Assembly (NCBI GenBank): GCA_964537555.1
Contig: CAZIAD010000001.1
Location: forward strand, 5,732 to 69,731
DNA: 64,000 nucleotides
Direction: 5' to 3'
From: an uncultured Brevinematales bacterium
GTDB lineage: Bacteria > Spirochaetota > Brevinematia > Brevinematales > CAYRWR01
Part shown: positions 1 through 64,000 of the stretch, piece after piece
How positions within the stretch are numbered: position 1 is the first letter of the stretch
Layout of the letters: each line of letters begins with the position of its first letter
The notes under the pieces: model-generated
The model's database searches: none
Told to the model about the DNA's origin: nothing
The model's input: only the letters and a program-made list of their open reading frames with translations
Translations under genes and position numbers: made by a program

Positions 1-72
1 CTTTACCGCTGAGGACGCAAAGGGCGCTGAGTTTGTGGGGCCAGATTCAGGCCTGAGTTGGATTTCTTCGCC

Positions 73-106
73 GACTTTCGACTTTCAACTTTTGACTTTT
101 GACTTA
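73..106. repeat. short tandem repeat (GACTTTY)x5
   Basis: gactttc gactttc aactttt gactttt gactta at the window edge, 3' of the hydrolase gene. Confidence 0.5.
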
Positions 107-186
107 TTCTGCCCGGTGCCTCGGTCTTGGCCGGAAGGTACCAGATGACGGAGAGGCCTGTGATATAGGAGGGATTCAACTATCTC

Positions 187-1584: not shown

Positions 1585-1770
1585 AGATATCTCCTTCTAG
1601 TGAAAGTAAATTCTTTATATTTTATTTCATAAAACTCATTTTCCATGTAATAGATGCCGCTTTATGCACCTCCATTAAAGATAACAGATAGGGTGACAGT
1701 GATTGTTCCTTATCCATTTCTTCAAATCTAATCACCGAGAGGCCTGTGTTGTATTATGGGCATTTATTAT

Positions 1771-2508
1771 TCACTTTATCATTTTTCCAAAATAGATATA
1801 AGAACTTAGGCTATAGAAGTACTCTTCCTTCTCATCTAGATCTTTCATTTCCTTAATGATCTTCAGATGGTCTTCGGACCCTATGACCCCTTTTTCCACA
1901 AGGGCATTAAGGTCCATCATTCGGTCGAATCCGTACGAGCCTTCTTCAAATCTGGTTTCAATGAGGTTGAAGATCTCGGGCTGACCCTGAAATCTGCCTG
2001 AACTTTGGAAGAATCCCCACAGCTTACGGCCCATCATTCCGTCACAGGCATCCATCCAGCCTTGTTCCCAGTCTGCAAATCTGTGCACAAAGTCCCGGAT
2101 CAAATCCTTGTTTTCTGAATTCCAGACCTGTGTGTCCCAATCCCAGTGGGCAAACAGAACCCGGCCTCCCGGTTTAAGAATACGGCACAATTCTTCCAGC
2201 AGCACTGTCTTGTCAGGGATACACTCCAGTACATCTACAGAAAGGATAACATCGAAGCTGTTGTCCGGGAAATCAAAGGCATCAACAAATTTTTGGACTT
2301 TGAAGTCTATACCGGGAAAATGCTCAGAGGCATAATCCTGTGATTCAGGCAGAGAATTCGTTCCGATCAGGATGCTGTTGGGTGAAACATGTTTCTTTAC
2401 TTCTCCCAGGAGCTGGCCATTACCGCAGCCAAAGTCGAGGATGCTATAATCCATATCCTTATCCAGGTTCAAAAGTTCGATTATTCTTTGGCTGAGATGA
2501 TGTTTCAT
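1771..2508 (-). CDS. class I SAM-dependent methyltransferase
   Basis: 245-aa ORF with glycine-rich SAM motif I (LDFGCGNGQLL) followed by acidic motif II region. Confidence 0.75.
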   Translation of the reverse strand: MKHHLSQRIIELLNLDKDMDYSILDFGCGNGQLLGEVKKHVSPNSILIGTNSLPESQDYASEHFPGIDFKVQKFVDAFDFPDNSFDVILSVDVLECIPDKTVLLEELCRILKPGGRVLFAHWDWDTQVWNSENKDLIRDFVHRFADWEQGWMDACDGMMGRKLWGFFQSSGRFQGQPEIFNLIETRFEEGSYGFDRMMDLNALVEKGVIGSEDHLKIIKEMKDLDEKEEYFYSLSSYIYFGKMIK

Positions 2509-2645
2509 CTGACACTCCCTGAAGGCCTAAAAAGTATTAGCCTCTCTTTTTTATCTATTAAGACCAGATCCAACCAGCCTGGCAAATGAAGTGAGGACAT
2601 TGCGCGGCAATAGTAGCGTCTGTGTCCTGCATTGAATTTGCTCAA

Positions 2646-3203
2646 TCACATTTTAAAATCTTTTTTAATGATTGAATACATTTTATAATTATGAAAAGTA
2701 CCATTATTATCAGGAGCATAATGTCTTAAGTTCCCTTCATACTTCATTTCTACTTTTTCTAATACTTTTTCAGAAGCAGTATTACTCTCATTAACAGTTG
2801 CCTGGACCCTTTCAAATCCTACATCGATTAAAAGAAATCTTATGATTTCTTTCAGTGCTTCTGTCATTATACTTTTATTCCAATATTTTTTTGAAATGCA
2901 ATAGCCTATCTCACATCTTTTATCTCTATCAGAACAATCTATTACTCCCACTGAGCCTATAACCTGATTATCCTCTTTATATTTTATTGCCCATTGATAC
3001 GACTCGGCATTGTCATATTCTTTGACCCAGGTATTTATTACACTCTTAGTTAGCTCAATATTTTCATGCGCCTTCCAGGTTAAGTATTTTGCTACCTCAT
3101 CATCGGAGGCCCAATTATTGAACATATTTTCAGAATCTTCTACTTTGAATTTTCTCAATATTAATCTCTTCGTCTCAATTTCTTTTGTTCCTAAATGATT
3201 CAT
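2646..3203 (-). CDS. GNAT family N-acetyltransferase (RimJ/RimL-like)
   Basis: 185-aa ORF; N-terminal 'ETKRLILRKF...YLTW' pattern typical of RimL-type GNATs. Confidence 0.7.
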   Translation of the reverse strand: MNHLGTKEIETKRLILRKFKVEDSENMFNNWASDDEVAKYLTWKAHENIELTKSVINTWVKEYDNAESYQWAIKYKEDNQVIGSVGVIDCSDRDKRCEIGYCISKKYWNKSIMTEALKEIIRFLLIDVGFERVQATVNESNTASEKVLEKVEMKYEGNLRHYAPDNNGTFHNYKMYSIIKKDFKM

Positions 3204-3245
3204 AAATTACTCTCTCATTTAATATTCCGCTACGGAACAGTCAAA

Positions 3246-3776
3246 CTATTTAACTCTAGCGTAAACTTTACAATCTCGCGGAATCAAGGAGATATTAGGA
3301 TGTATTATCCATTTTCTCAAGGTCCCTTCAAGTTCCATACCCAGTTTTTTCATGACACGTCCTGATGCAGGGTTATCTATATCGTGAACTGCCCAAATTC
3401 TCTGGATCTCAGGAATATTATATATCCAATTAAATACAGGGATTAATGCTTCAGTCATCAAACCTTTGTTCCAGTATTTTTTTGCTAATGCGTATCCAAA
3501 ATCAGCTTTAAATCCGTCTACTCTAAAATCAAGCATGCCAATGATCTCTTCTGCTTCTTTTAAATGAATCACAAAAGGAAATGCTTTACCAGTATCCCAG
3601 CTAGCAATTGCCATTTTAAGAAACTCTTGAATGGTTGATATTTTTTCATGTGGAGTCCAGGTGAGATATTTTACAACATCTGAGTCCTGGGCATAGTTCT
3701 TAAATATATCTTTCGCATCATTAAGGTCCGGTTTTCTTAAAATCAGTCGCTCAGTTTCAAATATCATATTTCTCAC
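3246..3776 (-). CDS. GNAT family N-acetyltransferase (paralog of upstream gene)
   Basis: 176-aa ORF; 'ETERLILRKP...YLTWTPH' plus conserved 'KKYWNKG(L/I)MTEAL' motif shared with 2646..3203. Confidence 0.7.
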   Translation of the reverse strand: MRNMIFETERLILRKPDLNDAKDIFKNYAQDSDVVKYLTWTPHEKISTIQEFLKMAIASWDTGKAFPFVIHLKEAEEIIGMLDFRVDGFKADFGYALAKKYWNKGLMTEALIPVFNWIYNIPEIQRIWAVHDIDNPASGRVMKKLGMELEGTLRKWIIHPNISLIPRDCKVYARVK

Positions 3777-3898
3777 CTGTATCAGGAATAATTTATCTTA
3801 TTCTAACTATCCTCTCCAAAATAATCCAGCATCCCGGCGTTACAGCGCCTTAAGGCCGACTCCTGTCCTGAGTTTATCAGATGTAAACAAATAAAAAC

Positions 3899-3927
3899 TT
3901 GACACACTAACGAACGTTAGCTATTAT
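3899..3927 (+). promoter_or_regulatory. sigma70-like promoter (TTGACA-17-TATTAT) with embedded palindromic operator CTAACGAACGTTAG (3907..3920) upstream of the TetR gene
   Basis: -35 TTGACA 3899-3904, -10 TATTAT 3922-3927, inverted repeat ctaacg-aa-cgttag between them; SD aaagggg before ATG 3956. Confidence 0.55.
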
Positions 3928-7765: not shown

Positions 7766-7777
7766 GTAAGAGGATAA

Positions 7778-7925
7778 TCTCTCACAAAGACACAAAGGGC
7801 ACAAAGTTTTTTGGTTTAGGTTTGATTTAATTTTCAGAGCATATCAGGAAATATACTCCTAAATTCTTTCTGTCTTACTTTGTGGTCTTCGTGTCTTTGT
7901 GAGAGGCTCTTTCCCCGCTGCTGGG
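7778..7925. repeat. composite palindromic repeat element, copy 1 (inverted-repeat arms ctctcacaaagacacRaag / cttcgtgtctttgtgagag plus GC-rich tail ggctctttccccgctgctggg)
   Basis: arm 1 7778-7810, arm 2 7874-7909, about 60-nt AT-rich spacer; tail 7905-7925 lies inside the 3' end of CDS 7875..8723. Confidence 0.7.
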
Positions 7926-8723
7926 TAAGCCCGGATAATACTTTTGGGCACAATCAGGGCACATACTGTGGGTAAAGTCTGCTTCTGAATGCCGGGAGAT
8001 ATAGGTCTCTACACTGCTCCAGGTACCCTGTTCATCTCTGATCTTTTTACAGGAGGAACAGATGGGCAGGAGGCCGCTGAGCTGCCTGACCCGGTCCAGG
8101 CTGGCTTTGAGTTCCCGGTTGACCCTAAAGGTCTGCCGGGAGCTGCGTTCTACCAGATAGGCGGCATAGGTAAATATCAGTATCATTCCAATCAGGAAGA
8201 AATCATAGACCATGAGAAGACCGGGAGCCAGGGGCACCACAAAAATAAAGACCACATTAAACACCAGCAGGTCTGTCAGCATAGCCAGGATACTGAATCT
8301 CAAGCCCATACCAGCTGTGGAAAATATGGCGGCAAATCCCATGACCAGGCCCAGGGAATAGAGGCTGAACTGCTGGGTAGAATCCCGGGACACCAGGAAA
8401 ATACTGAACAGGCCTACCAGAAGAATATACATTCCTGAACTCAGTATAAGATAGCGCCTCATACCCGGTATAAATGTCAGAACGAAGATCAGTAAGCCTA
8501 CCAGAATAAGAGATAAGCGTACCACGCTCACCTGAACTGCCGCCTCCCCGAACACCAGCTGGTCCAGGAGGGCAAAAGTGCCGCCCAGTAGCGGGATAAT
8601 GAGCCAGGCTATACGGCAGAAGACCAAGGTGTTATTTGCGGTCTGCTCCCTGTAGGCTGACTCAGTATTTTTATCTTCAAAGGGTAATGCAAGAAGCTTC
8701 ATACGGTTTTTCTTTTGTTTCAT
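7875..8723 (-). CDS. polytopic membrane protein with C-terminal cytoplasmic C4 zinc-ribbon (CSSCKK...CPDC)
   Basis: 282 aa; about 6 predicted TM helices, then 'LPICSSCKKIRDEQGTWSSVETYISRHSEADFTHSMCPDCAQKYY'; last about 16 codons are encoded by the repeat element. Confidence 0.65.
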   Translation of the reverse strand: MKQKKNRMKLLALPFEDKNTESAYREQTANNTLVFCRIAWLIIPLLGGTFALLDQLVFGEAAVQVSVVRLSLILVGLLIFVLTFIPGMRRYLILSSGMYILLVGLFSIFLVSRDSTQQFSLYSLGLVMGFAAIFSTAGMGLRFSILAMLTDLLVFNVVFIFVVPLAPGLLMVYDFFLIGMILIFTYAAYLVERSSRQTFRVNRELKASLDRVRQLSGLLPICSSCKKIRDEQGTWSSVETYISRHSEADFTHSMCPDCAQKYYPGLPSSGERASHKDTKTTK

Positions 8724-8825
8724 AATGTGTCCTGATATACATTATTCTCACAATAATATAACATAAGATAACCTAATAACTAATATATTGCAAGAGGATT
8801 TTTCATTCAGGGCTGCAATGGACGA

Positions 8826-8970
8826 TCTCTCACAAAGACACCAAGGGCACAAAGTTTTTTTTGAGATTTTTTTGTGTAATCCTTCTACTCTACTTAGTGA
8901 TCTTCGTGTCTTTGTGAGAGGCCTTTATCCCGCCACGGGATGGGTCAGACGGAGGGGGCTGAAGAGGAAC
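8826..8970. repeat. composite palindromic repeat element, copy 2 (same orientation as copy 1) with extended GC-rich tail
   Basis: arm 1 8826-8856 (tctcacaaagacaccaagggcacaaagtttt), arm 2 8899-8922 (cttcgtgtctttgtgagaggcc), tail 8921-8970. Confidence 0.7.
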
Positions 8971-10018: not shown

Positions 10019-11074
10019 ATGAAAAAATTAGTGGTATTGTTGTCCCTGGGACTGATGTTGTTTGTTTCAGCCTGTGGCGGAGAAAAAGAACTGGTGATCA
10101 AGATACCTCTCGTGACCTGGGGTGGCTATGCAGCCCTGTTTGCTGCCAATGGCGGTGCCCAGCCCAGCACAAATTCACTGTTTTATAAATATGGAAAGTT
10201 TAAAGTAGAACTGGTACAGGAAGAAAACCCTGCCAACCAGCTCCAGGGATTTGCCAAGGGTAGCTACCAGATCATCTGGTCTACTATGGACATGCTGCCC
10301 CTGCACTATGACTCTCTGAGTAAGGATACCCGGACCGTACCCCAGGTCCTGGGCCTGTTTGACTTTTCAGCCGGGGGTGACGGTATCATCGTACGGGGAG
10401 ACATCAAGTCTGCGGCTGACATGAAAGGAAAGAAGATCGTCACTGCCCAGTATACCCCCTCACACTACTTTATCATGTGGTACCTGGACCAGGCCGGACT
10501 CACTGAAAAAGACGTAAACATGATCTACGTATCCGACGCCATCCTGGCCAAAGATACCTACATCAATGATAAAGACATATCGGTCTGTGTGACCTGGTCA
10601 CCCTTTATCTATGACATTACCGATCCCACCAAAGACACCTATGTGTCAGGCTCCAAGCTGCTCACCACTACCGCTCCCGGCAATGACTCCTATGGACTCA
10701 TCGCTGATGTCTACCTGGCCCGCAAGGACCTGGTGCAGGAGCATCCTGAAGTGATCGATGCCTTTGCCCGGGCCATGATCGAAGGTTATGACATCTTTAT
10801 GAGGGACCAGGATGCGGTAGCCGAGATGATCGCCGGCTTCTTCGGCCTCAAAGGCGGAGCAGAAGAGGTCAAGCTGATGTTCGGCGATGTCACTATAGGT
10901 GGAAAAAAAGAAAACCTGCAGTTCTTTGATGCTAAAAATAAATTTTCAGCATACAATATTTTCAATATCTCTACTGAACTGTATAAGAAGAACGGTGCGG
11001 TACTGCCGGCAGACTTTGCGGTAGACCCTAATTCTGTGATCTACAACCGGCCTATCATCACAGCTGCTCAATAA
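10019..11074 (+). CDS. ABC transporter substrate-binding lipoprotein, NMT1/SsuA/TauA (aliphatic sulfonate/nitrate/taurine) family
   Basis: 351 aa; signal peptide + lipobox (LFVSAC); 'KGKKIVTAQYTPSHYFIMWYL' SsuA-like motif. Confidence 0.75.
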   Translation: MKKLVVLLSLGLMLFVSACGGEKELVIKIPLVTWGGYAALFAANGGAQPSTNSLFYKYGKFKVELVQEENPANQLQGFAKGSYQIIWSTMDMLPLHYDSLSKDTRTVPQVLGLFDFSAGGDGIIVRGDIKSAADMKGKKIVTAQYTPSHYFIMWYLDQAGLTEKDVNMIYVSDAILAKDTYINDKDISVCVTWSPFIYDITDPTKDTYVSGSKLLTTTAPGNDSYGLIADVYLARKDLVQEHPEVIDAFARAMIEGYDIFMRDQDAVAEMIAGFFGLKGGAEEVKLMFGDVTIGGKKENLQFFDAKNKFSAYNIFNISTELYKKNGAVLPADFAVDPNSVIYNRPIITAAQ

Positions 11075-11091
11075 GACTAAGGGAGTATTAA

Positions 11092-12747
11092 ATGTCTAAA
11101 AAACTAATCGGGATCATTATCCTGGCTGCCATCATCATCGTAGGGGTGGTAGTGTATATATCTCAGTCCAAAGGCAGTGGCGGCGGATTCAGCGGCCAGT
11201 ATCAGGCCAAGCCTACCCCTGCCAGTATCACCGGTGTATCCGGATACAATATCTCTACCGTCAAGATAGACGGTAAAGACATACCTCTGATCAAAGTACC
11301 CCTGGTGACCTGGGGAGGTTATGCCGCCCTGTTTGCCGCCAATAAAGGGATCAAACCCAATAAAAACTCTCTGTTCTATAAGAACGGAGGATTTGTAGTA
11401 GAGCTGGTGCAGGAGGAAAATCCTATCACCCAGCTCCAGGAATATGCCAAGGGTAACTACCCCATCATCTGGTCAACTATGGACATGCTGCCCCTGATGT
11501 ATGACGTACTCAAGCAGGATAAACGGGTCATTCCCCAGGTGTTCGGTATATTTGACTGGTCCTTCGGGGGAGATGGAATTATCGTAAGAGGTAATATCAA
11601 GACCCCTAAAGACCTCAAAGGCAAGCGTATCGTGACTGCGGGGCATACCCCTTCCCACTACTTCCTGCTGTGGCTGCTGGCCCAGTCTGACATACAGCCC
11701 GCTGATGTACAGATCGTATATGTGGATGACGCGATCCAGGCCAAAGATGCCTTTATCAAAGACAAGAACATCGATGCCTGTGTGACCTGGTCACCCTTTA
11801 TCTATGACATCACCGACCCCAAGAACCGCTCCTACGTGGACGGGTCCCGCCTGCTCATCACCTCCAAGGATGCCAACCAGCTTATCGCTGACTGTTACCT
11901 GACCCGCCTGGACTTTGCCAAGGAACATCCTGAGATGGTAGAAGCCTTTTCCAAATCCATGATGGAGGGATTCCAGGAGTATACTGCCAATCCCGGTCCG
12001 GTGTACCAGTGGATCGCCGACCTGTTTAAGCTGCCCGGAGGAGCCAGTGATGCCAAGCTCATGATCGGAGATGTACATATTGCTAATTTCCCCGAGAACC
12101 TCATGTTCTTTGATATCAGTAATCCTATCAGCGCCTACAAGGTATTCTTCCTGTCCCACGAGTATTACAAGATGATAGGCAGTCTGCCCCAGGACTCCAG
12201 CTATGATGCAGAGACGGTGATCAACAGCTCCTTCCTGCAGAAGTTTAAGTCCCAGAACCTGTTTGCCTCCCAGCAGAATACCATCAAGAACTCCTTTAAC
12301 CGCCAGAGCAGCTTTAACATCGCTGACCTGGAGTCTAAAAAAGTAGTGCTGGCCCAGGACATCGAGATCTACTTCGACGCCCAGAGTGTGGACTTTGACT
12401 TTACTTCCAGCCGTGAAGAGATCGCCAATAACAAGAAGCTGCTGTCCAAAGTAGCCCAGCAGATGGACGTACTGGGTACCACCATCGTAAAGCTGGTAGG
12501 GCACCTGGACACCACCAAGGTAGCTGATTTTAAAGCCATGGGCGCTCAGGCCTTTATCGAAGCTTCCGCCCAGGCCAAGCTCATCTCCAAGAGAAGAGCC
12601 GAGTTTATCAAGACCATACTGGTAGAGAAGTACGGCTGTGACCCTCAGCGTATCATCACCGAGGGTAAGGGCTGGGACCAGCCTATAGACAGCACTGACC
12701 AGACCAAAAACCGCAGGGTGGAAGTACGCTTCCTGTCCTTTGAATAA
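11092..12747 (+). CDS. TM-anchored SsuA-like substrate-binding domain fused to C-terminal OmpA-like peptidoglycan-binding domain
   Basis: 551 aa; N-terminal TM helix, SBP core paralogous to 10019..11074 (VTWGGYAALFAAN shared), C-terminus 'GHLDTT...NRRVEVRF' OmpA_C signature. Confidence 0.7.
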   Translation: MSKKLIGIIILAAIIIVGVVVYISQSKGSGGGFSGQYQAKPTPASITGVSGYNISTVKIDGKDIPLIKVPLVTWGGYAALFAANKGIKPNKNSLFYKNGGFVVELVQEENPITQLQEYAKGNYPIIWSTMDMLPLMYDVLKQDKRVIPQVFGIFDWSFGGDGIIVRGNIKTPKDLKGKRIVTAGHTPSHYFLLWLLAQSDIQPADVQIVYVDDAIQAKDAFIKDKNIDACVTWSPFIYDITDPKNRSYVDGSRLLITSKDANQLIADCYLTRLDFAKEHPEMVEAFSKSMMEGFQEYTANPGPVYQWIADLFKLPGGASDAKLMIGDVHIANFPENLMFFDISNPISAYKVFFLSHEYYKMIGSLPQDSSYDAETVINSSFLQKFKSQNLFASQQNTIKNSFNRQSSFNIADLESKKVVLAQDIEIYFDAQSVDFDFTSSREEIANNKKLLSKVAQQMDVLGTTIVKLVGHLDTTKVADFKAMGAQAFIEASAQAKLISKRRAEFIKTILVEKYGCDPQRIITEGKGWDQPIDSTDQTKNRRVEVRFLSFE

Positions 12748-15384: not shown

Positions 15385-15420
15385 CAGAAAGGGCTGTCTT
15401 ATTGGCAGCCCTTTTTTTAT
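15385..15420. terminator. bidirectional rho-independent terminator
   Basis: hairpin aaagggctg-tcttattg-cagcccttt flanked by A-run and T-run, between convergent genes. Confidence 0.7.
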
Positions 15421-16643
15421 TTAATTGATATATTATTTATCTTTATCCATTCATCGACAGATCTGTCATCGATTTTGGTATTGCTATCCTTCAGGGCCTT
15501 ATAGGTTTTCCTGGAAATCGATACGACCGGATTCCCTTTGAGCCATAACTTTTTGAGATCTCTCTGATTTTCCAGGCCTTCTATATGAGAGATTCTGTTT
15601 TTTTCCAGGTCCAGTTCTTTAAGTCTGACCAGAGTACTGAGGCCTTCTATCTTCTCAATGTGGTTACCATGCAGGATCAGGACCTCCAGTTCAGTCAGAT
15701 TTTCCAGATTTTCTATTCTGCTGATCTGATTATCATAGATCTTGAGTAAGTTCAGTTTTTTCAGATTTTCCAGGCCTTCTATCCTGGTATATCGGCTCTG
15801 TGACAGCTTGAGCTCACGAAGATTGACGAGCTTATCCAGATTCTCAATTTTAGAAATAGGGTTTTCAGCTACATAGAGTTTTTTAAGGGTGACCAGCTTA
15901 TCCAGATTTTCCAGCCGGGAGATCCGGTTACTGGTTATGTTGAGATAAGTCAGTTGAGGCAGCTCATCCAGATTTTCTATTTTGCTGATCTGATTAAGAT
16001 ACAGAGAAAGGGTCTTTAGCTTTTTTAAGGCACTGACATTTTCTATCTTAGTGATACGGTTGTTATCCAGATTAATATATTTCAGATTTTTCAGAGAAGA
16101 GATATGGTCTATCTTCCCGATCTTATTCAGATAGATCTCAATATGCTCCAGTGAGGTGAGATCTTCCAGGCCCTGCAGACTCTGTATCTGATTATTATCC
16201 AGGAGTATCTTTTTTAGATGCTGTAGTTTGCTTAAACCTTCTATCTTCATTATCTTACAGCCATTCAGGGTAAGGGTACTGAGCTCAGTCAATGGATCCA
16301 GATTTTCGATCCTGGTGATGGGATTTCCGCCCAGATACAGATTTTGCAATCCGCGCAAGCTGTCCAGGTTCTCTATTTTACTGATCTGATTTTCACCCAG
16401 ATACAGATCTCTCAGCATAGTAAGGCTGGACAGATTTTCTATCCGAGTAATACGGTTTTTAGATAAATACAAAGATCTCAAGGCGTGAAATTCATCCAGG
16501 CCTTCGATCTTAGTGATTGCTTTGGACTGGAGACGCAGGATCGAGGTATCTGCAGGCCATTGCCTGCCCATAAATTCTATAGTATTACTAAAAGAAAAGG
16601 TGCTGCATAATAAAAGAATGCTGATCACAAGTGTTTTTTTCAT
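15417..16643 (-). CDS. secreted leucine-rich repeat (LRR) protein, internalin-like 22-residue repeats
   Basis: ORF 15417..16715; likely start at internal Met (MKKTLVISILLLCSTFSFS signal peptide); about 17 tandem 'LxxLxxLxLxxNxIxxIENL' units. Confidence 0.8.
   Translation of the reverse strand: MKKTLVISILLLCSTFSFSNTIEFMGRQWPADTSILRLQSKAITKIEGLDEFHALRSLYLSKNRITRIENLSSLTMLRDLYLGENQISKIENLDSLRGLQNLYLGGNPITRIENLDPLTELSTLTLNGCKIMKIEGLSKLQHLKKILLDNNQIQSLQGLEDLTSLEHIEIYLNKIGKIDHISSLKNLKYINLDNNRITKIENVSALKKLKTLSLYLNQISKIENLDELPQLTYLNITSNRISRLENLDKLVTLKKLYVAENPISKIENLDKLVNLRELKLSQSRYTRIEGLENLKKLNLLKIYDNQISRIENLENLTELEVLILHGNHIEKIEGLSTLVRLKELDLEKNRISHIEGLENQRDLKKLWLKGNPVVSISRKTYKALKDSNTKIDDRSVDEWIKINNISIK
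15520..16500. repeat. tandem 66-bp DNA repeats encoding the LRR units
   Basis: periodic recurrence of 'ccagattttc(t/c)a' style motifs every 66 nt along the CDS. Confidence 0.6.
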
Positions 16644-16767
16644 GTATTTGCGCCTCTTAGCTAAATTTTCATCTATTTTAGCCTGAAATCCCGTAAAAAG
16701 CGAAATTCCATACAAAAAGACCCGCCTTTAAAAAGACGGGACTTTTACTTATCTACATGAATGTTCT

Positions 16768-23497: not shown

Positions 23498-24562
23498 CTA
23501 TTTTCCCACTTTATCCATATTCAACAGTAAAAATCTTTGGCTTCTGATGTTTTTACTATTCCCATCCACTGTAATAGTGAGAGTGTCACTGAATAATGAC
23601 TCTGTTTTTTTAGTCTTTGAATCCGTCCATCCCCCATCCGAGGTATAGGCATTATGGGCTTCCCAGTACCTTTTGCTGCTTTCTGTGTGCAGGCCGTAGA
23701 TCTTCAGCACTATTTTATTTCCGGACTGGGAGGCTATACTCCAGTTCCCTTTGAATACATCCTCAAACACATCATATTCTACTTTGAATCCCCCATTGTT
23801 GTCGAGGTCTTTAAACAGCTCCCTGATCTCACTTTCGGGCTGAGTAGAGTTCCACTGGCTGATCTCTATCTTAAAGCTGCCCGTAGAGCTAAAGTAAGCT
23901 TTGTAGCTTTTTTTATTCTTAATGTCTGGGTGAGTTGATTTTTCCTCTTTCACTATATCGGTATCCAGGGCTGCTGTAAAGGGATGCTTAGCCAGCTGTT
24001 CCCTGAAGTACTGCCTCAGTTCATCCTCAAAAGAAGTCTGTAATTCCCGGTAGCTGCTGTCATCTCCCAACTTGATCTCAGATATACAGGTATCCTGATA
24101 CTGGGTCCCGGGGTAGACTGAGTCTATTCTGATCTCGATAGTCCTGACCCCTGCCTGAAATCCCAGAGGCACTGCCTGGTATTCCATATTATCCTTGAGG
24201 GTCTTTTTTATGATCTCGGTGCCATTTATAGTAACAGTAATGGCCCGGGGACGGCTGTTTTTAGTAAAATGGGAGGCTGACCTCTGGTAGCCATTGGCTA
24301 TGTAGAGCACCGAGATGTCCTGGCTCTGCTCCAGGGTGATCTTGATAGTACTGCCTATGCCCTGTCCCCGGTCCCCTTCTACCCAGGCCCGGAACAGACT
24401 GTCATCACACAGAAATCCTGCACCATAAGAGCTGAAAGGATCCAGGGTTGAGCTGGCTGTGATGGTAGCCCGGACAGAGCCGGTATACTCCAGGTTTTCC
24501 AGTGTCATTGGATAGACGCGGGAGATCATTAACACCGAAAGAATAAAGACGAACTGTTTCAT
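23498..24562 (-). CDS. secreted protein with N-terminal discoidin/galactose-binding-like domain
   Basis: 354 aa; signal peptide; 'DDSLFRAWVEG...GIGSTIKITL...YIANGY...ISEIKL' jelly-roll pattern. Confidence 0.5.
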   Translation of the reverse strand: MKQFVFILSVLMISRVYPMTLENLEYTGSVRATITASSTLDPFSSYGAGFLCDDSLFRAWVEGDRGQGIGSTIKITLEQSQDISVLYIANGYQRSASHFTKNSRPRAITVTINGTEIIKKTLKDNMEYQAVPLGFQAGVRTIEIRIDSVYPGTQYQDTCISEIKLGDDSSYRELQTSFEDELRQYFREQLAKHPFTAALDTDIVKEEKSTHPDIKNKKSYKAYFSSTGSFKIEISQWNSTQPESEIRELFKDLDNNGGFKVEYDVFEDVFKGNWSIASQSGNKIVLKIYGLHTESSKRYWEAHNAYTSDGGWTDSKTKKTESLFSDTLTITVDGNSKNIRSQRFLLLNMDKVGK

Positions 24563-28715: not shown

Positions 28716-28812
28716 AACAACCTCACAGATATTTTATATATTTTAACATTAATTCAGTTAAAAATCAAATCAATAGTCTCAGTATTTAAAAAAGCACGGA
28801 CAAGAAATAGCA

Positions 28813-28848
28813 AAAAGCCCCGGATGTTTTACCAGTCCGGGGCCTTTT
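28813..28848. terminator. bidirectional rho-independent terminator
   Basis: hairpin gccccgga-tgttttaccag-tccggggc followed by ctttt. Confidence 0.6.
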
Positions 28849-28956
28849 GCATGAGTGAAGAGGTGTTTTGGAGGGTTGTATGAAAAATTGTTGTTGTCCA
28901 ATTTAATAGATAAGAGACAAGGGGGCTGAAAACGGTTAGATACATACCAGTTTTAT

Positions 28957-29289
28957 TTAAATGAGTGTTTGAAGGTCTTTAATTAGGACAGGAATATTAT
29001 TGATAATAGTATCCCATACTATGTCATCACTTAGGGCATCATATCCATGAATGATAACATTTCTAAAACCAATAATTTCTTTCCAGGAATTCACAGAAAT
29101 CAGGATTTCTTCATTCATTTTAAATACTCTATTGAAAGCTTCGCCGATTATCTCAAATTGTCTTTCTACAGCAGATTGTGTTTTTAAATCATTTCGATAT
29201 TCTTCAAAACTCATATTTAAAGTAAATTCCTTTATTAAAAGAGCTGCATTTAGAGCATCTTCCAGGCAGACTTTTGGGTCATGCAGCAT
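28957..29289 (-). CDS. hepT: HepT-like (DUF86) toxin RNase of a HepT/MntA toxin-antitoxin pair
   Basis: 110 aa; Rx4HxY motif 'FRNVIIHGY'. Confidence 0.8.
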   Translation of the reverse strand: MLHDPKVCLEDALNAALLIKEFTLNMSFEEYRNDLKTQSAVERQFEIIGEAFNRVFKMNEEILISVNSWKEIIGFRNVIIHGYDALSDDIVWDTIINNIPVLIKDLQTLI

Positions 29290-29575
29290 AAAGTTCTCTG
29301 GTTTTATTATAAATATTTTGTTTCAGTCGTGCGTTTTTAATGGCATCTGGCATAAGAAGATCAACCGGTCTTTTCAGAATTAATTCCAGCTCACTTTTTA
29401 ATGCCATATATCTATGTAGACCATTAGTTGAATGGGATAATTCCAGTAGAAAATCCACATCGCTATTCTTTTGAAATTCTTTAGTTAATGCACTGCCGAA
29501 TAGAGTCAGTTTTTTTACTTCATACTTTTCGCACAGTGATTTAATTCTGTCCAGATAGGGTTCGATTTTCAACAT
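29279..29575 (-). CDS. mntA: MntA-like minimal nucleotidyltransferase antitoxin
   Basis: 98 aa; 'FGSALTKEFQKNSDVDFLLE' GSx(n)DxD nucleotidyltransferase motif; 11-nt overlap with hepT. Confidence 0.8.
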   Translation of the reverse strand: MLKIEPYLDRIKSLCEKYEVKKLTLFGSALTKEFQKNSDVDFLLELSHSTNGLHRYMALKSELELILKRPVDLLMPDAIKNARLKQNIYNKTRELYAA

Positions 29576-29632
29576 TCATTATTCCTTGATTAATGATACA
29601 GGATAATGAAATGGAGGTCAAGATTCTACTAA

Positions 29633-58226: not shown

Positions 58227-58262
58227 AAAAACGGCTCCTGAAATATAGGAGCCGTTTTCTGT
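58227..58262. terminator. bidirectional rho-independent terminator
   Basis: hairpin aaaacggctcct-gaaatat-aggagccgtttt. Confidence 0.75.
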
Positions 58263-59472: not shown

Positions 59473-59734
59473 TTGTACCCCCCGATACGGAATGGGGGTA
59501 TGCACCATAACCCCCATATAACATTACTAATAAAATATGTTAATGCTTAAGAAATATTATGTCAAGAAACGAATGTGTTTACAGATAATTACCGGTGCCC
59601 ATGTCATTATTATAGATAAAGATGTCATCTAATTTCTTAGTTTTGATGAGGCCAATTCTACTGAAAAGGGGCTCCATGTTTTGATTTTAATTATAGGCTA
59701 ATTTACAATTAACCCTGAACAGAAGGAGAAAATA

Positions 59735-60982
59735 ATGTCACACAAAGAGTATATAGAGAAAATCGCCCAACAGGCCCGCAAAGTGTCCTACCAGGTGGCC
59801 TCCAAAAGCACCCGGGAAAAGAATGCGGCCCTAGAGGCCATAGCAGGACAGATCAGTGCTGCCAGGCAGGCCATACAGAAGGAAAATGCCAAAGATATAG
59901 AGTATGCCCGTAATAATAATATCAGTGAAGCGGTAATAGACCGGCTCTTACTCACTGATGCCCGTATCGACACTATGGTACAGGCTATCCGGGATATTAT
60001 TCAGCTGGACGACCCGGTGGGATCAGGAGACCTGATTCGCACCCTGCCTAACGGCCTCCAGCTCAACAAGATAAAAGTACCCCTGGGGGTGGTGGCCATG
60101 ATCTATGAGTCCCGCCCTAACGTGACCAGCGATGCCGCCAGCCTCACCCTCAAATCAGGAAATACCGTGATCCTCCGGGGGGGCAAGGAATCACTTCACT
60201 CCAATAAGATCATTGCTGACCTGATACGTAAAGGCCTGGAATCGGTAGCTTTTCCTGTGGACGCGGTGCAGTTTATCGATCAGACGGACAGGGAAATAGT
60301 AGACGAGATGCTCAGGCTGAACCAGTACATCGATGTCGTCATACCCCGGGGTGGTGAGGGCCTGATCCGGGCTGTGTCTGAAAAGTCCAGTATCCCTGTG
60401 ATTAAACACGATAAAGGGGTGTGCCATGTATTTGTCGATGCCAGCGCAGACCGGGCCAAAGCTGAAGCCATAGCGGTCAATGCCAAAGTACAGAGGCCCA
60501 GCGTGTGTAATGCCGCCGAGACCCTGCTTATCCATAAAGACTATCCTTATAAAAAAGAGATTATTGCCGCCCTGCTTAAGGAAAACGTGGAAGTGCGGGC
60601 TGATAAAGCCCTGCGCCATGTAGTAAATGGCCTGCCTGCCGCTACCGAAGAGGACTGGACTACCGAGTACCTCGACCTCATCATCTCTGCCAAAGAAGTA
60701 GAGTCAGTACAGGCAGCAGTGGACCATATAAATACCTACGGCTCCCATCATTCTGACGCCATAGTCAGTGAGCATTATGGCTCTACTCAGCTCTTTTTAC
60801 AGCAGGTAGACTCCGCTGCAGTGTACGCCAATGCCTCCACCCGCTTCACCGACGGGAGTGAGTTCGGGCTGGGAGCGGAGATCGGCATCTCCACCCAGAA
60901 GCTGCATGTCCGGGGCCCCATGGGGCTGGAGGGGCTGTGTTCCGAGAAGTGGGTGATCTACGGCCAGGGGCAGGTCCGCTGA
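59735..60982 (+). CDS. proA: glutamate-5-semialdehyde dehydrogenase (gamma-glutamyl phosphate reductase)
   Basis: 415 aa; ALDH-superfamily; catalytic Cys in 'RPSVCNAAETLL'. Confidence 0.9.
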   Translation: MSHKEYIEKIAQQARKVSYQVASKSTREKNAALEAIAGQISAARQAIQKENAKDIEYARNNNISEAVIDRLLLTDARIDTMVQAIRDIIQLDDPVGSGDLIRTLPNGLQLNKIKVPLGVVAMIYESRPNVTSDAASLTLKSGNTVILRGGKESLHSNKIIADLIRKGLESVAFPVDAVQFIDQTDREIVDEMLRLNQYIDVVIPRGGEGLIRAVSEKSSIPVIKHDKGVCHVFVDASADRAKAEAIAVNAKVQRPSVCNAAETLLIHKDYPYKKEIIAALLKENVEVRADKALRHVVNGLPAATEEDWTTEYLDLIISAKEVESVQAAVDHINTYGSHHSDAIVSEHYGSTQLFLQQVDSAAVYANASTRFTDGSEFGLGAEIGISTQKLHVRGPMGLEGLCSEKWVIYGQGQVR

Positions 60983-61034
60983 TAGAACAGGGGCATCCTG
61001 AGTATATACCTTATACTGTACCGCCCTACCGGGG

Positions 61035-61071
61035 CTCTTTCCCTGTCGGTGGGCGACAGGGCAGGGGCTGG
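61035..61071 (+). repeat. GC-rich hairpin-forming repeat A (ctctttccctgtcggtgggcgacagggcaggggctgg)
   Basis: near-identical copy at 61503-61539; related to the tail of the palindromic element at 7905-7925 / 8921-8970. Confidence 0.6.
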
Positions 61072-61404
61072 CATAAGGTGCCTATGCCGGAGACAACCGG
61101 AGGGCTTTCCGCTTTCTTTTCGGGAAGAAAAGAAAGCTTGGCAAAGAAAATTCCTTTTTTGGCTGGTGGAACTATAGGGCATCACCCCGCGAATTGGTGG
61201 CTGATAGATTAGCAGACAATGTGCCGGGCGGGCTGAATGTCCTGGCGGAGAGGCGCAGACTAGGGTATTTCAGCCCTTAGTAGCGTAGGGTGGGGTGCAC
61301 ATTGAGGAGCGGGACAGCCCCCTTCGGCGGGGAATTGGAGCCTGGTTTAGTTGAAGTTTTTTAGTCGGTTTGAGGGTTAGGGCTCGGACTTAAAAGATTT
61401 GTCC

Positions 61405-61450
61405 ACTATAGACTATAAGCTAATGACTAGTGACTCATTTTGACTCTACC
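61405..61450. repeat. island-associated imperfect palindrome R1 (ccactatagactataagctaatgactagtgactcattttgactc)
   Basis: shares 'ccactatag' and 'gagtcat/gactcat' blocks with R2/R3. Confidence 0.4.
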
Positions 61451-61502
61451 TGTTACTGTCTTCCTGAGTCTCTACCCTTTACTTTACCCCACTATCGAAG
61501 GA

Positions 61503-61539
61503 TTTTTCCCTGTCGTTGGGAGACCTGGCAGGGGGCTGA
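61503..61539 (+). repeat. GC-rich hairpin-forming repeat B (tttttccctgtcgttgggagacctggcagggggctga)
   Basis: 29/34 identity with repeat A, direct orientation, 468 bp apart. Confidence 0.6.
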
Positions 61540-61569
61540 TGGTAAACAGTAGTTAGGTGCAATTCAGCA

Positions 61570-62427
61570 TTGATAAAAGTAGGAGCAATTATTATAAAAT
61601 ATCACTCTTTCTTACTGATAATAGTCTTATTTCTAACATCTTGTAGTCCTCGTATACTAGAAAGAAAAGAAATTCCAAGTCCTAGAGATGGAATAAAGAG
61701 AGAATCTATACAGTATGTAAGTCAAGGCATATCTGTTCGAGGGTATATACTTCAACCTGAATCCGATACTAAAAGTCTACCTGTAATTATTTATATTCGT
61801 GGTGGACATTCAAAATTGGGATTTATATCTGAAGAGTTTTTTGATTATCTTGCATTCATATCTAGTCTAGGATATGCAGTATTTATAAATGAACAACGTG
61901 GAGCTACTTTTACAGATGGAAAAGATGAATATGGTGGCAAAGAAATAAATGATGTGAAAGCACTTATTCGTATTGCTCTCAAAGAAAAAAATATTGATAA
62001 GAATAAAATATATATGTGGGGTAATTCTAGGGGTGGAATGATGGCATATCTCTTCCAGAAATATCAGCTACCAATAAAGGCAATGGCAGTAACCGGAGGA
62101 ATCTCTGATTTGTCTTTTTCATATAGCAATCGTGAAAAGAGTTTCCAAGATGTGCTTGATGATGCAATCGGTGGACCTCCTGCAAAATACCCTAAAGATT
62201 ATCAGTCTCGATCAGCAGTATGTTGGCCAGAAAAGTTTCACATTCCAGTAATTATTATACATGGAGAAGATGACTGGAGAGTTCCTGTTTCTCAGGTTTC
62301 AAATTTGGTTACAAAATTAGAGAACCTCAGCAAAGAGTTCGAGGTTCATATTCTACCTGACCAACCACATTTTACAGATACAAATATTTCAATTCCTTTA
62401 ATTAAAGGTTGGTTTGAGAAATATTAG
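61570..62427 (+). CDS. alpha/beta-hydrolase lipoprotein (S9 peptidase/dienelactone-hydrolase-like) in AT-rich island
   Basis: 285 aa; lipobox LTSCS; GxSxG 'WGNSRGGMMA'; 'IIHGEDDWRVP'; GC about 33%. Confidence 0.7.
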   Translation: MIKVGAIIIKYHSFLLIIVLFLTSCSPRILERKEIPSPRDGIKRESIQYVSQGISVRGYILQPESDTKSLPVIIYIRGGHSKLGFISEEFFDYLAFISSLGYAVFINEQRGATFTDGKDEYGGKEINDVKALIRIALKEKNIDKNKIYMWGNSRGGMMAYLFQKYQLPIKAMAVTGGISDLSFSYSNREKSFQDVLDDAIGGPPAKYPKDYQSRSAVCWPEKFHIPVIIIHGEDDWRVPVSQVSNLVTKLENLSKEFEVHILPDQPHFTDTNISIPLIKGWFEKY

Positions 62428-62475
62428 GTTTTTGAAATTAGAATAATATGATATTAAAATATAACACAGTACCTA

Positions 62476-62520
62476 ACTAGGACTCTGCAGCCACTATAGC
62501 GGCGCTGAGTCATGTACGTT
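62476..62520. repeat. island-associated GC-rich imperfect palindrome R2 (aactaggactctgcagccactatagcggcgctgagtcatgtacg)
   Basis: dyad gactctgc...gctgagtc; about 80% identical to R3; between genes. Confidence 0.6.
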
Positions 62521-62549
62521 ATCTACCATTTAAATAGGAAGAGAAAAAT

Positions 62550-63044
62550 ATGGATAGAATTTTTGAATTAGTTTCTAAAGCTTATACAACTAATGAGTTA
62601 GATGCACTAGTAAATGGTCAAAAAAACTATGGTTTACAAACACCTTATATGTGTCCTGTAAAAGAACTTCCAACAGACTGGCAAAAATTATTAATAGAAG
62701 GGATTTATCCCTTCTATATGAATAGTGATAAGCAGATAAAAAATAAAATGGAAAAAATGTTACTCAGCAATATGGATTCAATATTGGGATTGTATTGCAC
62801 AATAAATTTGTTTTTCAGACAAATAATGAATGAGTCTTTTGGCAATTCCCCATTCATAATGGATAAAGAAGCTATCATACATGATATACCAATAAAAATA
62901 AAAATGTTTAAAAGTGACTTGAAAAAAGATTTTCGATGGATGGGCGAGCATTTAGCCCAAGGACTTTATGATGAAATTCAAAGGATGATTTCAATTCTTA
63001 ATACTGATTTTAAAGTTAAATTAAGTAATACGCTAGATAACTAG
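62550..63044 (+). CDS. hypothetical protein (helical, no recognisable motif) in AT-rich island
   Basis: 164 aa; GC about 28%; SD ggaagag before ATG. Confidence 0.6.
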   Translation: MDRIFELVSKAYTTNELDALVNGQKNYGLQTPYMCPVKELPTDWQKLLIEGIYPFYMNSDKQIKNKMEKMLLSNMDSILGLYCTINLFFRQIMNESFGNSPFIMDKEAIIHDIPIKIKMFKSDLKKDFRWMGEHLAQGLYDEIQRMISILNTDFKVKLSNTLDN

Positions 63045-63085
63045 GACTCCGCCGCCACTAGCCCAGTGCAGAGTCATTTCATCAT
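63043..63085. repeat. island-associated GC-rich imperfect palindrome R3 (aactaggactccgccgccactagcccagtgcagagtcatttcat)
   Basis: dyad gactccgc...gcagagtc; overlaps the TAG stop of 62550..63044. Confidence 0.6.
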
Positions 63086-63114
63086 ACACCTTAAAAAAAC
63101 AGAGAGGACACCTT

Positions 63115-63741
63115 ATGAAAAAAACACTCTTCAGCACCCTTTGTCTTTTGACCCTCTTATCCTGTCAGACACAGTCTGAGCCTAAAAAGGATTACCTTAA
63201 TGCCTATAAGACAAAAAATTACATTTGGTATAAGAATAAGATCTTGAGTAAAAAAATTTATCTGGGAGAGCATCTGGATACTGTGCTCCCAAAAGTCAAA
63301 GATAAAGACTTAGAGGTCAAACTTCAGGATAATATGCCTGAAGTGAAATACTTCGTAAGCAGTACCAGACTGTTTGGATATGACAGCGATGCATTATTCA
63401 GGTTTGGTTTTGACTATCTGGTATATGTAAAATATATGATAGTAGTACATGATGAGGCATATAATTCTGTCTACTCTAAAATAGAGCGTATTTTGAGCAA
63501 AAAATACGGCCCTTACAGATTAGATGCTTCCCATGAAAAACAATGGGTCATAGCTGAAACCTATTCTGTCACTTTAGGTAAATTTATCCATACTGGTAAT
63601 GAGCCCTATGATGCCATTACAGTTACCTACCGAGAGCACCGTGTCACTTCCAAAATCATTGAAAGGGCGAGGCAGGATCTGGAAAAAAAGGAAGAAATCG
63701 ACACCGTTCTGGATCTGGCCTATAATCCTCATAATCAATAA
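63115..63741 (+). CDS. lipoprotein of unknown function in AT-rich island
   Basis: 208 aa; signal peptide + lipobox LLSCQ; SD gagagga. Confidence 0.6.
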   Translation: MKKTLFSTLCLLTLLSCQTQSEPKKDYLNAYKTKNYIWYKNKILSKKIYLGEHLDTVLPKVKDKDLEVKLQDNMPEVKYFVSSTRLFGYDSDALFRFGFDYLVYVKYMIVVHDEAYNSVYSKIERILSKKYGPYRLDASHEKQWVIAETYSVTLGKFIHTGNEPYDAITVTYREHRVTSKIIERARQDLEKKEEIDTVLDLAYNPHNQ

Positions 63742-63753
63742 GGATCTTTAAAA

Positions 63754-64000
63754 ATGGAAAGACTACATATCAGGAAAATCGGAAAAGAAAACATCAAGCT
63801 TCATATCCAGTGTCGCATGACATATTGCCTCAGGGACTCTAAAGATGTGGCTCAAAAAGAGTATGAAGCCTTTTTTAAGGATGTAGAGGAATGGACCCTG
63901 GAGCAGCTGAAATCAGATTCCTATTATACCTATGCGGGTTATTTAGGTGATGAATTAATTTGCTTTGCCGGGGTTCTGATATATGAGCTGCCTCCCATTC
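63754..64000 (+). CDS. GNAT-family acetyltransferase-like, 5' part (runs off window)
   Basis: MERLHIRKIGKENI... 'YAGYLGDELICFAGVLIYE'; GC returns to about 45%. Confidence 0.45.
   Translation, partial: MERLHIRKIGKENIKLHIQCRMTYCLRDSKDVAQKEYEAFFKDVEEWTLEQLKSDSYYTYAGYLGDELICFAGVLIYELPPI

What the first reader, a model, noticed from the sequence alone, without database searches (positions are those of the whole stretch)
60983..61569. GC-rich structured non-coding block after proA bounded by 34-bp direct repeats, at the junction with an AT-rich island
The 590 nt between proA and the next gene contain two near-identical direct repeats (61035-61071, 61503-61539; tttccctgtcgNtggg...ggcaggggGctg), each able to fold as a hairpin. 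They flank about 430 nt of about 58% GC sequence with multiple perfect stems (gctttctttt-cgggaag-aaaagaaagc at about 61120-61150, a UUCG-tetraloop stem cccccuucggcgggg at about 61330). The repeats are related to the tail of the palindromic element at 7905-7925 / 8921-8970, which suggests a dispersed repeat family. GC content drops abruptly to about 33% right after repeat B. This is compatible with an integration scar or att-like duplication, or with an unrecognised structured RNA.
Basis: seen in the sequence. Interest (0 to 1): 0.6.

Follow-up and report, generated by a model that had tools for sequence, protein, structure and literature searches.

The report
Imperfect repeat scar downstream of proA
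The stretch after proA holds a real but imperfect 76-78 base direct repeat around about 390 bases of orphan non-coding DNA, next to a patch of AT-rich accessory genes; it looks like a leftover of DNA insertion or recombination, not a structured RNA gene.

Summary
Copy A is 60996-61071 and copy B is 61462-61539, identical in 60 of 78 aligned columns (77%), blastn E 1e-10. These are the only two copies in the 64 kb window.

Several other claims do not hold:
- Only copy A forms a strong hairpin.
- Only the first ~135 nt, which holds two palindromes, folds better than shuffled sequence. The remaining ~270 nt, including the 'UUCG' stem, does not.
- The interior is 50% GC, not 58%, and GC falls from about 61340, before copy B.
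- The link to 7905/8921 is chance. Shared 11-mers number 15, against 16.5 in shuffles.

There are no Rfam, tRNA/tmRNA or Pfam matches, and no homologue in phages, plasmids, viral or JGI metagenome contigs. None was found downstream of proA in six relatives (70-73% ProA identity). No recombinase gene lies in the window.

The flanking AT-rich genes (S9 hydrolase, IFS immunity protein, lipoprotein) are cassette-like and are separated by imperfect palindromes.

Best reading (confidence ~0.4): an att-like or recombination duplication that encloses a decayed, gene-less remnant. Interest is low.

The parts
60996..61071 (+). Direct repeat copy A (76 nt, 60.5% GC). It starts 13 nt after the proA stop codon.
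   Evidence: 77% identical to copy B, blastn E 1e-10. GC.
61034..61068 (.). Hairpin H1 inside copy A. It has an 8-bp perfect core (CCCTGTCG/CGACAGGG). On the + strand, G-U pairs extend it to 14 paired positions of a 15-position stem.
   Evidence: I1; DNA fold z -3.7.
61111..61137 (.). Hairpin H2: a perfect 11-bp palindrome, GCTTTCTTTTC-GGGAA-GAAAAGAAAGC. It is probably a gene-end (terminator-type) hairpin.
   Evidence: It is one of 11 loci with perfect stems of 9 bp or more in the window, against about 1.3 in shuffles. By position, most of these sit at gene ends.
61072..61340 (.). G-rich part of the interior (55% GC, GC skew +0.24). It is orphan non-coding sequence.
   Evidence: composition. 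(no coding signal). (no Rfam match). (no excess folding beyond H1 and H2).
61341..61461 (.). AT-rich part of the interior (39% GC). It contains GACTC...GAGTC (61432-61470), which may be a decayed copy of the island's inter-gene palindrome. The evidence for that is weak.
   Evidence: this pattern occurs only here and at the two island palindromes, with 0.64 expected; alignment to E2 is marginal (4 of 300 shuffles score as well); an HMM of E1 and E2 does not detect it.
61462..61539 (+). Direct repeat copy B (78 nt, 52.6% GC). Its hairpin is degraded.
   Evidence: fold z -0.9.
61553..61572 (+). GTTAGGT / AGGTG ribosome-binding site and the TTG start codon of the first AT-rich gene (S9-family hydrolase lipoprotein, 61570-62427).
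   Evidence: Sequence, ORF, Pfam PF00326.
62462..62522 (+). Island inter-gene imperfect palindrome E1. It lies after ORF1.
63026..63077 (+). Island inter-gene imperfect palindrome E2. It overlaps the 3' end of ORF2 (IFS-like immunity protein).
   Evidence: Pfam PF16718.

Best explanation
The 590-nt spacer is most likely a recombination scar with no function of its own.

Proposed history (inferred):
- DNA was inserted into the 3' flank of proA by site-specific or homology-assisted (Campbell-type) recombination.
- The incoming molecule carried a stretch about 77% similar to the chromosomal target. The target is therefore now present twice, as copy A and copy B.
- Whatever lay between the copies has decayed to about 390 nt of gene-less DNA. 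This resembles a CIME, an element that keeps its attL and attR sites but has lost its genes.
- The AT-rich cassette-like genes beyond copy B are either a separate acquisition at the same hotspot (tandem accretion) or the DNA that was already there.

The two strong palindromes just after proA (H1 in copy A, and H2) probably act as proA's gene-end hairpins.

What is shown: the repeat, its sharp edges, the lack of any coding or RNA signal, the lineage specificity, and the composition. What is inferred: the recombination event, its order and its enzyme.
For: - The repeat is statistically solid and limited to this locus.
- Similarity stops sharply on both sides of each copy, and the flanks are unrelated. 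That is expected for an att-type or insertion duplication, and not for a segmental tandem duplication.
- The copies are only 77% identical, and the longest identical runs are 11, 8 and 8 nt. This fits two sequences of different origin better than a recent in-situ duplication.
- The locus lies at a composition boundary: 46% GC for the window, against 35% for 61540-64000.
- The genes beyond it are typical accessory cargo: an S9 hydrolase lipoprotein, an IFS-type immunity protein and an orphan lipoprotein. ORF2 has no homologue other than itself among 5.8 billion proteins.
- In six relatives (70-73% ProA identity) the DNA after proA differs. Three have proA followed within 10-37 nt by a lipoprotein gene and a CTP_transf_like gene read as nadD. 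Three have other neighbours. None has anything similar to the block. The proA 3' flank is therefore a variable site, and the block is lineage-specific.
- The interior has no ORF with a Pfam hit, no remnant of the relatives' downstream genes, and no Rfam, tRNA or tmRNA match.
- CIMEs and tandem accretion at att sites are documented (PMC5704250).
Against: - No integrase, transposase or other recombinase domain was found in any main ORF of the 64 kb window.
- The island's far end lies beyond the window, so no third repeat copy or integrase could be sought there.
- An intergenic target has no obvious reason to be mimicked over 76 nt by an incoming element.
- 61072-61340 is not compositionally foreign in the way the island is: 55% GC, against 46% for the window.
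- No closely related genome exists in the searchable collections (ProA identity jumps from 100% to 73%). The empty-site test could therefore not be run.
Confidence: 0.4

Rival explanations
1. The two copies are independent members of a short dispersed intergenic repeat family. The family would be REP/BIME-, MITE- or IS200/IS605-PATE-like, with hairpin-bearing units in direct orientation. The copies would merely happen to cluster in one spacer.
For: - 77% identity between copies is typical of such families.
- Each unit carries a hairpin or the remains of one.
- Copy B (53% GC) sits as a discrete block inside AT-rich DNA.
- The Logan unitig L001 carrying the identical proA ends 7 nt after copy A. 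A graph branch at a repeat could cause that.
Against: - There are only two copies in 64 kb, both in this spacer.
- There are no terminal inverted repeats and no target-site duplication (sequence).
- No RAYT, TnpA or TnpB gene lies in the window.
- The repeat core has no match in viral contigs or JGI metagenomes, nor in 94 fetched loci.
Confidence: 0.2
2. A local duplication arose without any mobile element, through replication slippage, unequal crossing-over or repair at a rearrangement breakpoint. The copies then drifted neutrally. The block is junk DNA at a synteny breakpoint.
For: - Gene order differs extensively between this genome and its relatives. The NMT1-to-VWA gene cluster that lies downstream of proA in L082 sits 45 kb upstream of it here.
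- No recombinase gene is visible, and no function was detected.
Against: - 23% divergence implies a long persistence of about 590 nt of useless DNA, despite the deletion bias of bacterial genomes.
- The repeats enclose unique sequence and do not form a tandem array.
Confidence: 0.15
3. A lineage-specific structured non-coding RNA of about 0.4-0.5 kb is encoded between the repeats, or the repeats are RNA-level elements of the proA 3' UTR and the ORF1 5' UTR.
For: - The + strand is G-rich (GC skew up to +0.36).
- H1 uses G-U pairs that work only on the + strand.
- The whole region on the - strand folds with z -3.9, and the interior with z -2.7.
Against: - There is no Rfam match at gathering thresholds or at E<=10, and ARAGORN finds nothing.
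- The + strand interior folds with z -0.98.
- Sub-windows 61160-61300 and 61290-61425 give z between -0.5 and +1.1 on both strands. Only the two DNA-symmetric palindromes are significant.
- No promoter-like site was found.
- No homologue exists, so covariation cannot be tested. Nothing similar follows proA in six relatives.
Confidence: 0.1
4. The block is the attI-like entry platform, or the first degenerate attC, of an integron-type cassette array that lacks an adjacent integrase (CALIN-like). Copy B would be a hybrid junction.
For: - The island genes are short, lie on the same strand, and are followed by imperfect palindromes. One palindrome overlaps an ORF end.
- A similar palindrome gives a weak hit (E 0.016) in the other AT-rich array at 2581-2628.
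- GACTC...GAGTC is confined to the block's 3' end and the two island palindromes.
- GTTAGGT (a GTTRRRY match) lies 10 nt before ORF1.
- CALINs are common and integrons occur in Spirochaetes (PMC4889954).
Against: - Strict R''/R' boxes (RYYYAAC...GTTRRRY) are essentially absent, and E2 has no GTT box (sequence).
- There is no intI gene in the window.
- Similarity of the block to E1/E2 is marginal.
- Integron recombination does not create 76-nt duplications.
Confidence: 0.05

Closest known systems
CIME (cis-mobilizable element) and tandem accretion at att sites of integrative elements (Pavlovic 2004 and Bellanger 2011, as reviewed in PMC5704250)
   Same: Imperfect direct repeats bound a gene-less remnant next to a conserved gene's 3' end. 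Further foreign DNA lies immediately beyond the second repeat.
   Different: - No cognate integrase gene was seen.
- The target is an intergenic flank and not a tRNA or gene end.
- The repeats are only 77% identical.
- Neither excision nor an empty site was shown.
CALIN / sedentary integron cassette arrays (Cury et al. 2016, PMC4889954)
   Same: The neighbouring AT-rich genes are small, co-oriented accessory genes separated by imperfect palindromes. No integrase gene is nearby.
   Different: The canonical attC R''/R' boxes are not met. The 76-nt duplication and the 390-nt block have no counterpart in integron architecture.
REP/BIME-type or PATE-type hairpin repeats (from my own knowledge of these families)
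   Same: These are short hairpin-containing units in direct orientation, found in a spacer downstream of a gene.
   Different: Only two copies were seen. The unit is long (76 nt), with a 38-nt non-palindromic part. No RAYT or TnpA gene is present.

Membership tests
att duplication of an integrative element / CIME | Direct repeats flank the inserted DNA and have sharp ends of similarity. | tested here: met
   60996-61071 versus 61462-61539, 77% identical, with unrelated flanks.
att duplication of an integrative element / CIME | The repeats contain an identical core long enough for strand exchange (7 bp or more). | tested here: met
   Identical runs are TTTCCCTGTCG (11 nt), TCCTGAGT (8 nt) and GGCAGGGG (8 nt). 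The criterion is weak and non-specific.
att duplication of an integrative element / CIME | A cognate integrase or recombinase lies in the element, in a tandem partner, or elsewhere in the genome. | tested here: inconclusive
   None was found in the main ORFs of the 64 kb window. The island continues beyond 64000, and the rest of the genome could not be reached.
att duplication of an integrative element / CIME | Close relatives show an empty site with a single repeat copy, or excision junctions are detectable. | not testable with these tools
   The nearest ProA is 73% identical. The island ORFs are not on record elsewhere. No read-level data were available.
Known structured RNA families (Rfam 15), tRNA/tmRNA | A covariance-model match at or near the family threshold. 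| tested here: not met
   There were 0 matches at gathering thresholds over the whole window and 0 at E<=10 for 60900-61700. ARAGORN found 0 genes.
Novel structured RNA | Folding stability beyond that expected from composition, and conserved, covarying structure. | tested here: not met
   Stability: only 61030-61165 is significant, because of palindromes that fold on both strands. The remainder gives z between -0.5 and +1.1. Covariation could not be tested, because no homologues were found.
Integron attC / attI (CALIN) | R'' RYYYAAC and R' GTTRRRY boxes bracket an imperfect palindrome of about 50-150 nt. | tested here: not met
   A strict scan found no properly paired site. The R' of E1 is GTTATCT, and E2 has no GTT box (and the sequence). 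The IntegronFinder covariance model was not available.
Integron attC / attI (CALIN) | An integron integrase gene lies nearby. For a CALIN, at least two bona fide attC sites are required. | tested here: inconclusive
   There is no intI gene. Two similar palindromes exist, but their attC status is unproven.
Dispersed REP/MITE/PATE repeats | Many copies are spread over the genome, with TIR/TSD or an associated RAYT/TnpA gene. | tested here: not met
   There are two copies in 64 kb, both at this locus. No TIR or TSD is present. No Y1 transposase gene was found. The rest of the genome was not searchable.
Diversity-generating retroelement (TR/VR pair) | Mismatches between the repeats are confined to adenines of one copy, a reverse transcriptase gene is nearby, and the VR lies inside a gene. 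| tested here: not met
   Mismatches involve all four bases in both copies. Both copies are intergenic. There is no reverse transcriptase gene.

The most novel reading that the evidence does not exclude
Copy A and copy B could be the two similar, same-strand hairpin ends of a small non-autonomous element about 540 nt long, spanning 60996-61539. Alternatively they could form the entry platform of an integrase-less cassette system specific to Brevinematia. Either would be a mobile-DNA architecture not yet described for this phylum, possibly carrying a lineage-specific RNA.
Probability: 0.07. Interest if true: 0.5.

Novelty: new member of a known kind. Interest (0 to 1): 0.15.

Why it matters
If the scar reading is right, this locus marks the proA 3' flank as an insertion hotspot in a poorly studied spirochaete lineage (Brevinematia). 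It also gives a handle for tracing how that lineage's AT-rich accessory gene arrays are acquired. By itself this is ordinary genome archaeology. The main value of this check is negative: it removes a candidate 'structured RNA', and it corrects the repeat boundaries and the composition claims.

Tried and rejected
- Rfam at gathering thresholds and at E<=10, and ARAGORN: nothing found.
- Pseudogene idea. tblastn of the relatives' downstream proteins (the lipoprotein, the CTP_transf_like protein read as NadD, and the GNAT) against the window found nothing. tblastn of the block's own stop-free segments against the fetched loci found only the identical Logan contig. A Pfam scan of those segments found nothing.
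- Homologue hunts for the block. blastn and nhmmer against the 94 fetched loci matched only the identical Logan contig L001.
- Walking beyond 64000, or finding alternative junctions, through exact look-ups of island ORFs 1-3: none is on record.
- Searching for this species' orthologue of the relatives' lipoprotein, to reach the far junction: none found.
- ORF2 homologues: only the protein itself.
- DGR, tmRNA, RNase P, SRP RNA, dif/IMEX and oriC ideas were rejected on reading the sequence. Mismatches are not adenine-specific. There is no T-arm and none of the conserved motifs. The XerD-arm match is poor. There is one DnaA-like box, with two mismatches.
- Strict attC box scan: negative.
- Link to 7905/8921: at chance level.
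- Chimeric assembly join was considered unlikely. A second AT-rich array with similar architecture lies inside normal sequence at 1-3900.

Full report
**What is there**

proA (59735-60982, + strand) is followed by 587 nt without a credible ORF. Then comes a TTG-initiated gene at 61570.

Copy A is 60996-61071 and copy B is 61462-61539. They are identical in 60 of 78 aligned columns (77%), with two single-base indels.
- blastn of the block against the whole window finds this pair at E 1e-10, and nothing else of note.
- The conserved core TTTCCCTGTCGNTGGGNGAC occurs exactly twice, against 0.02 expected by chance.
- Similarity ends sharply on both sides of each copy.

**Corrections to the observation**

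- Hairpins. Copy A contains a good hairpin (61034-61068; DNA fold -11.4 kcal/mol, z -3.7). The equivalent in copy B has decayed (-5.3 kcal/mol, z -0.9).
- Perfect stem. The 11-bp stem lies at 61111-61137.
- 'UUCG' stem. It has only 4-5 base pairs.
- GC content. The interior is 50% GC, not 58%. It is 55% for 61072-61340 and 39% for 61341-61461. The fall in GC therefore starts about 120 nt before copy B, and copy B (53% GC) is an island inside AT-rich sequence.
- Link to 7905/8921. This rests on one shared 11-mer. The block shares 15 such 11-mers with the rest of the window, against 16.5 in shuffles. blastn and a four-way alignment show no relationship.

**Is it an RNA?**

- Rfam 15 gives no match at gathering thresholds over the whole window, and none even at E<=10 over 60900-61700. 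ARAGORN finds no tRNA or tmRNA.
- Whole-region folding gives z -1.6 on the + strand and -3.9 on the - strand. For the interior alone the values are -0.98 and -2.7.
- In sub-windows, only 61030-61165 beats shuffles, at z -3.3 on the + strand and -4.0 on the - strand. This stretch holds the two DNA-symmetric palindromes H1 and H2.
- 61160-61300 and 61290-61425 give z between -0.5 and +1.1 on both strands.
- Perfect hairpins of 9 bp or more occur at 11 loci in the window, against about 1.3 in shuffles. By position, most lie at gene ends, for example 58228-58258 after pgi. H2 belongs to this ordinary class.
- No sigma-70-like promoter was found.

**Is it a dead gene?**

Stop-free segments have no Pfam match. 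They do not resemble the genes that follow proA in relatives.

**Comparative evidence**

The organism is a member of Brevinematales/Brevinematia. Its ProA has one exact match, and the next-best proteins are 70-73% identical. No strain-level comparison was therefore possible.

I fetched the proA locus of six relatives.
- In three, proA is followed within 10-37 nt by a ~360-aa lipoprotein gene and then a CTP_transf_like gene that I read as nadD.
- In the other three, other genes follow.
- None has anything resembling the block or the repeat.

Neither of those two downstream genes occurs in the window. Gene order has been rearranged between these genomes.

The block also has no match elsewhere:
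- none in plasmids or phages;
- none in viral contigs;
- none in JGI metagenomes, for either an interior 26-mer or the repeat core.

A Logan unitig carrying the identical proA ends 7 nt after copy A. This is compatible with a branch point in the assembly graph, but it is not evidence for one.

**The neighbourhood**

The sequence from 61540 to the end of the window (64000) is 35% GC, against 46% for the window. It encodes an S9-family hydrolase lipoprotein, an IFS-type immunity protein, an orphan lipoprotein and a further partial ORF that has no Pfam hit and that I took by eye for an acetyltransferase. ORF2 has no homologue but itself.

ORF1 and ORF2 are each followed by a 52-nt imperfect palindrome, E1 at 62462-62513 and E2 at 63026-63077, which are 75% identical. 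E2 overlaps the ORF2 stop codon.
- The motif GACTC-N18-32-GAGTC occurs only at E1, at E2 and at 61432-61470 in the block's AT-rich tail, with 0.64 expected by chance.
- An HMM of E1 and E2 does not detect the block. Alignment against shuffles is marginal, with 4 of 300 shuffles scoring as well for E2 and no significance for E1. I treat that third copy as a hint only.
- The same HMM gives a weak hit (E 0.016) at 2581-2628. This lies in a second AT-rich gene array at 1-3900, which I read by eye as two acetyltransferases, a methyltransferase and a beta-lactamase-like protein; these four genes were not scanned. That array has its own gene-end repeat.
- Strict integron attC boxes are not met.
- No integrase or transposase domain occurs in any main ORF of the window.

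**Interpretation**

The pattern has these features:
- a discrete, imperfect 76-78-nt duplication;
- unique gene-less DNA enclosed between the copies;
- a position between a core gene and foreign-looking cargo;
- a site that varies among relatives.

This is best explained as an att-like or Campbell-type recombination duplication enclosing a decayed remnant. It is comparable to a CIME with tandem accretion (PMC5704250). I give this reading about 0.4.

The 23% divergence between copies argues that they came from different molecules and not from a recent in-situ duplication. The missing recombinase gene and the invisible far end of the island keep the case open.

Rival readings and my confidence in each:
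- a clustered pair from a dispersed hairpin-repeat family (0.2);
- neutral duplication at a rearrangement breakpoint (0.15);
- a lineage-specific RNA (0.1);
- an integron-like platform (0.05; CALINs are described in PMC4889954).

**Verdict**

The repeat is real, and the RNA idea is unsupported. The att-scar idea is plausible but unproven. The feature is ordinary in kind and of low interest.

Noticed in passing
window 62462-62522 and 63026-63077; weak relative at 2581-2628 (- strand): The AT-rich accessory genes are separated by imperfect palindromes (CTAGGACTC-N21-GAGTCAT). One of them overlaps an ORF's stop codon. The arrangement is cassette-like (integron/CALIN-like), but it lacks canonical attC boxes, and no integrase gene lies in the window.
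   Followed up: partly
window 1-3900 (- strand genes); repeats at 145-167 and 1731-1753: A second AT-rich (38% GC) array holds four genes that I read by eye (no Pfam scan) as two GNAT acetyltransferases, a methyltransferase and a beta-lactamase-like protein. An 83%-identical 23-nt motif (CACAGGCCTCTC...) lies just downstream of two of the genes.
   Followed up: partly
window 7772-7925 and 8820-8935: Two copies of an element about 150 nt long flank the membrane-protein gene 7875-8723 (- strand). The element has terminal inverted repeats (CTCTCACAAAGACAC ... GTGTCTTTGTGAGAG) and looks MITE-like. It is unrelated to the proA repeats.
   Followed up: partly
window 62550-63044 and 23498-24562: The island's ORF2 matches Pfam IFS (immunity factor for the SPN NAD-glycohydrolase toxin). 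A protein with the NADase_transloc domain (PF25302) is encoded 38 kb away. This could be a separated toxin and immunity pair.
   Followed up: no
window 10019-12747: Adjacent paralogous NMT1-family binding-protein genes share 300-nt and 158-nt repeats at 73-75% identity. The same transporter cluster lies downstream of proA in the relative L082, so the genomes are rearranged relative to each other.
   Followed up: partly
window 28716-29632: An AT-rich (~37% GC) stretch of about 0.9 kb has no ORF of 120 aa or more and no Rfam match. Its content was not examined.
   Followed up: no
window 15417-16715 (- strand): A leucine-rich-repeat protein gene is built from 66-nt periodic repeats (8 copies detected).
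   Followed up: no
L001 (Logan SRR13617046), equal to window 59605-61078: The only other public contig carrying the identical proA ends 7 nt after repeat copy A. None of the island ORFs is on record in that collection. Possible causes are population heterogeneity at this junction or simply low coverage.
   Followed up: partly
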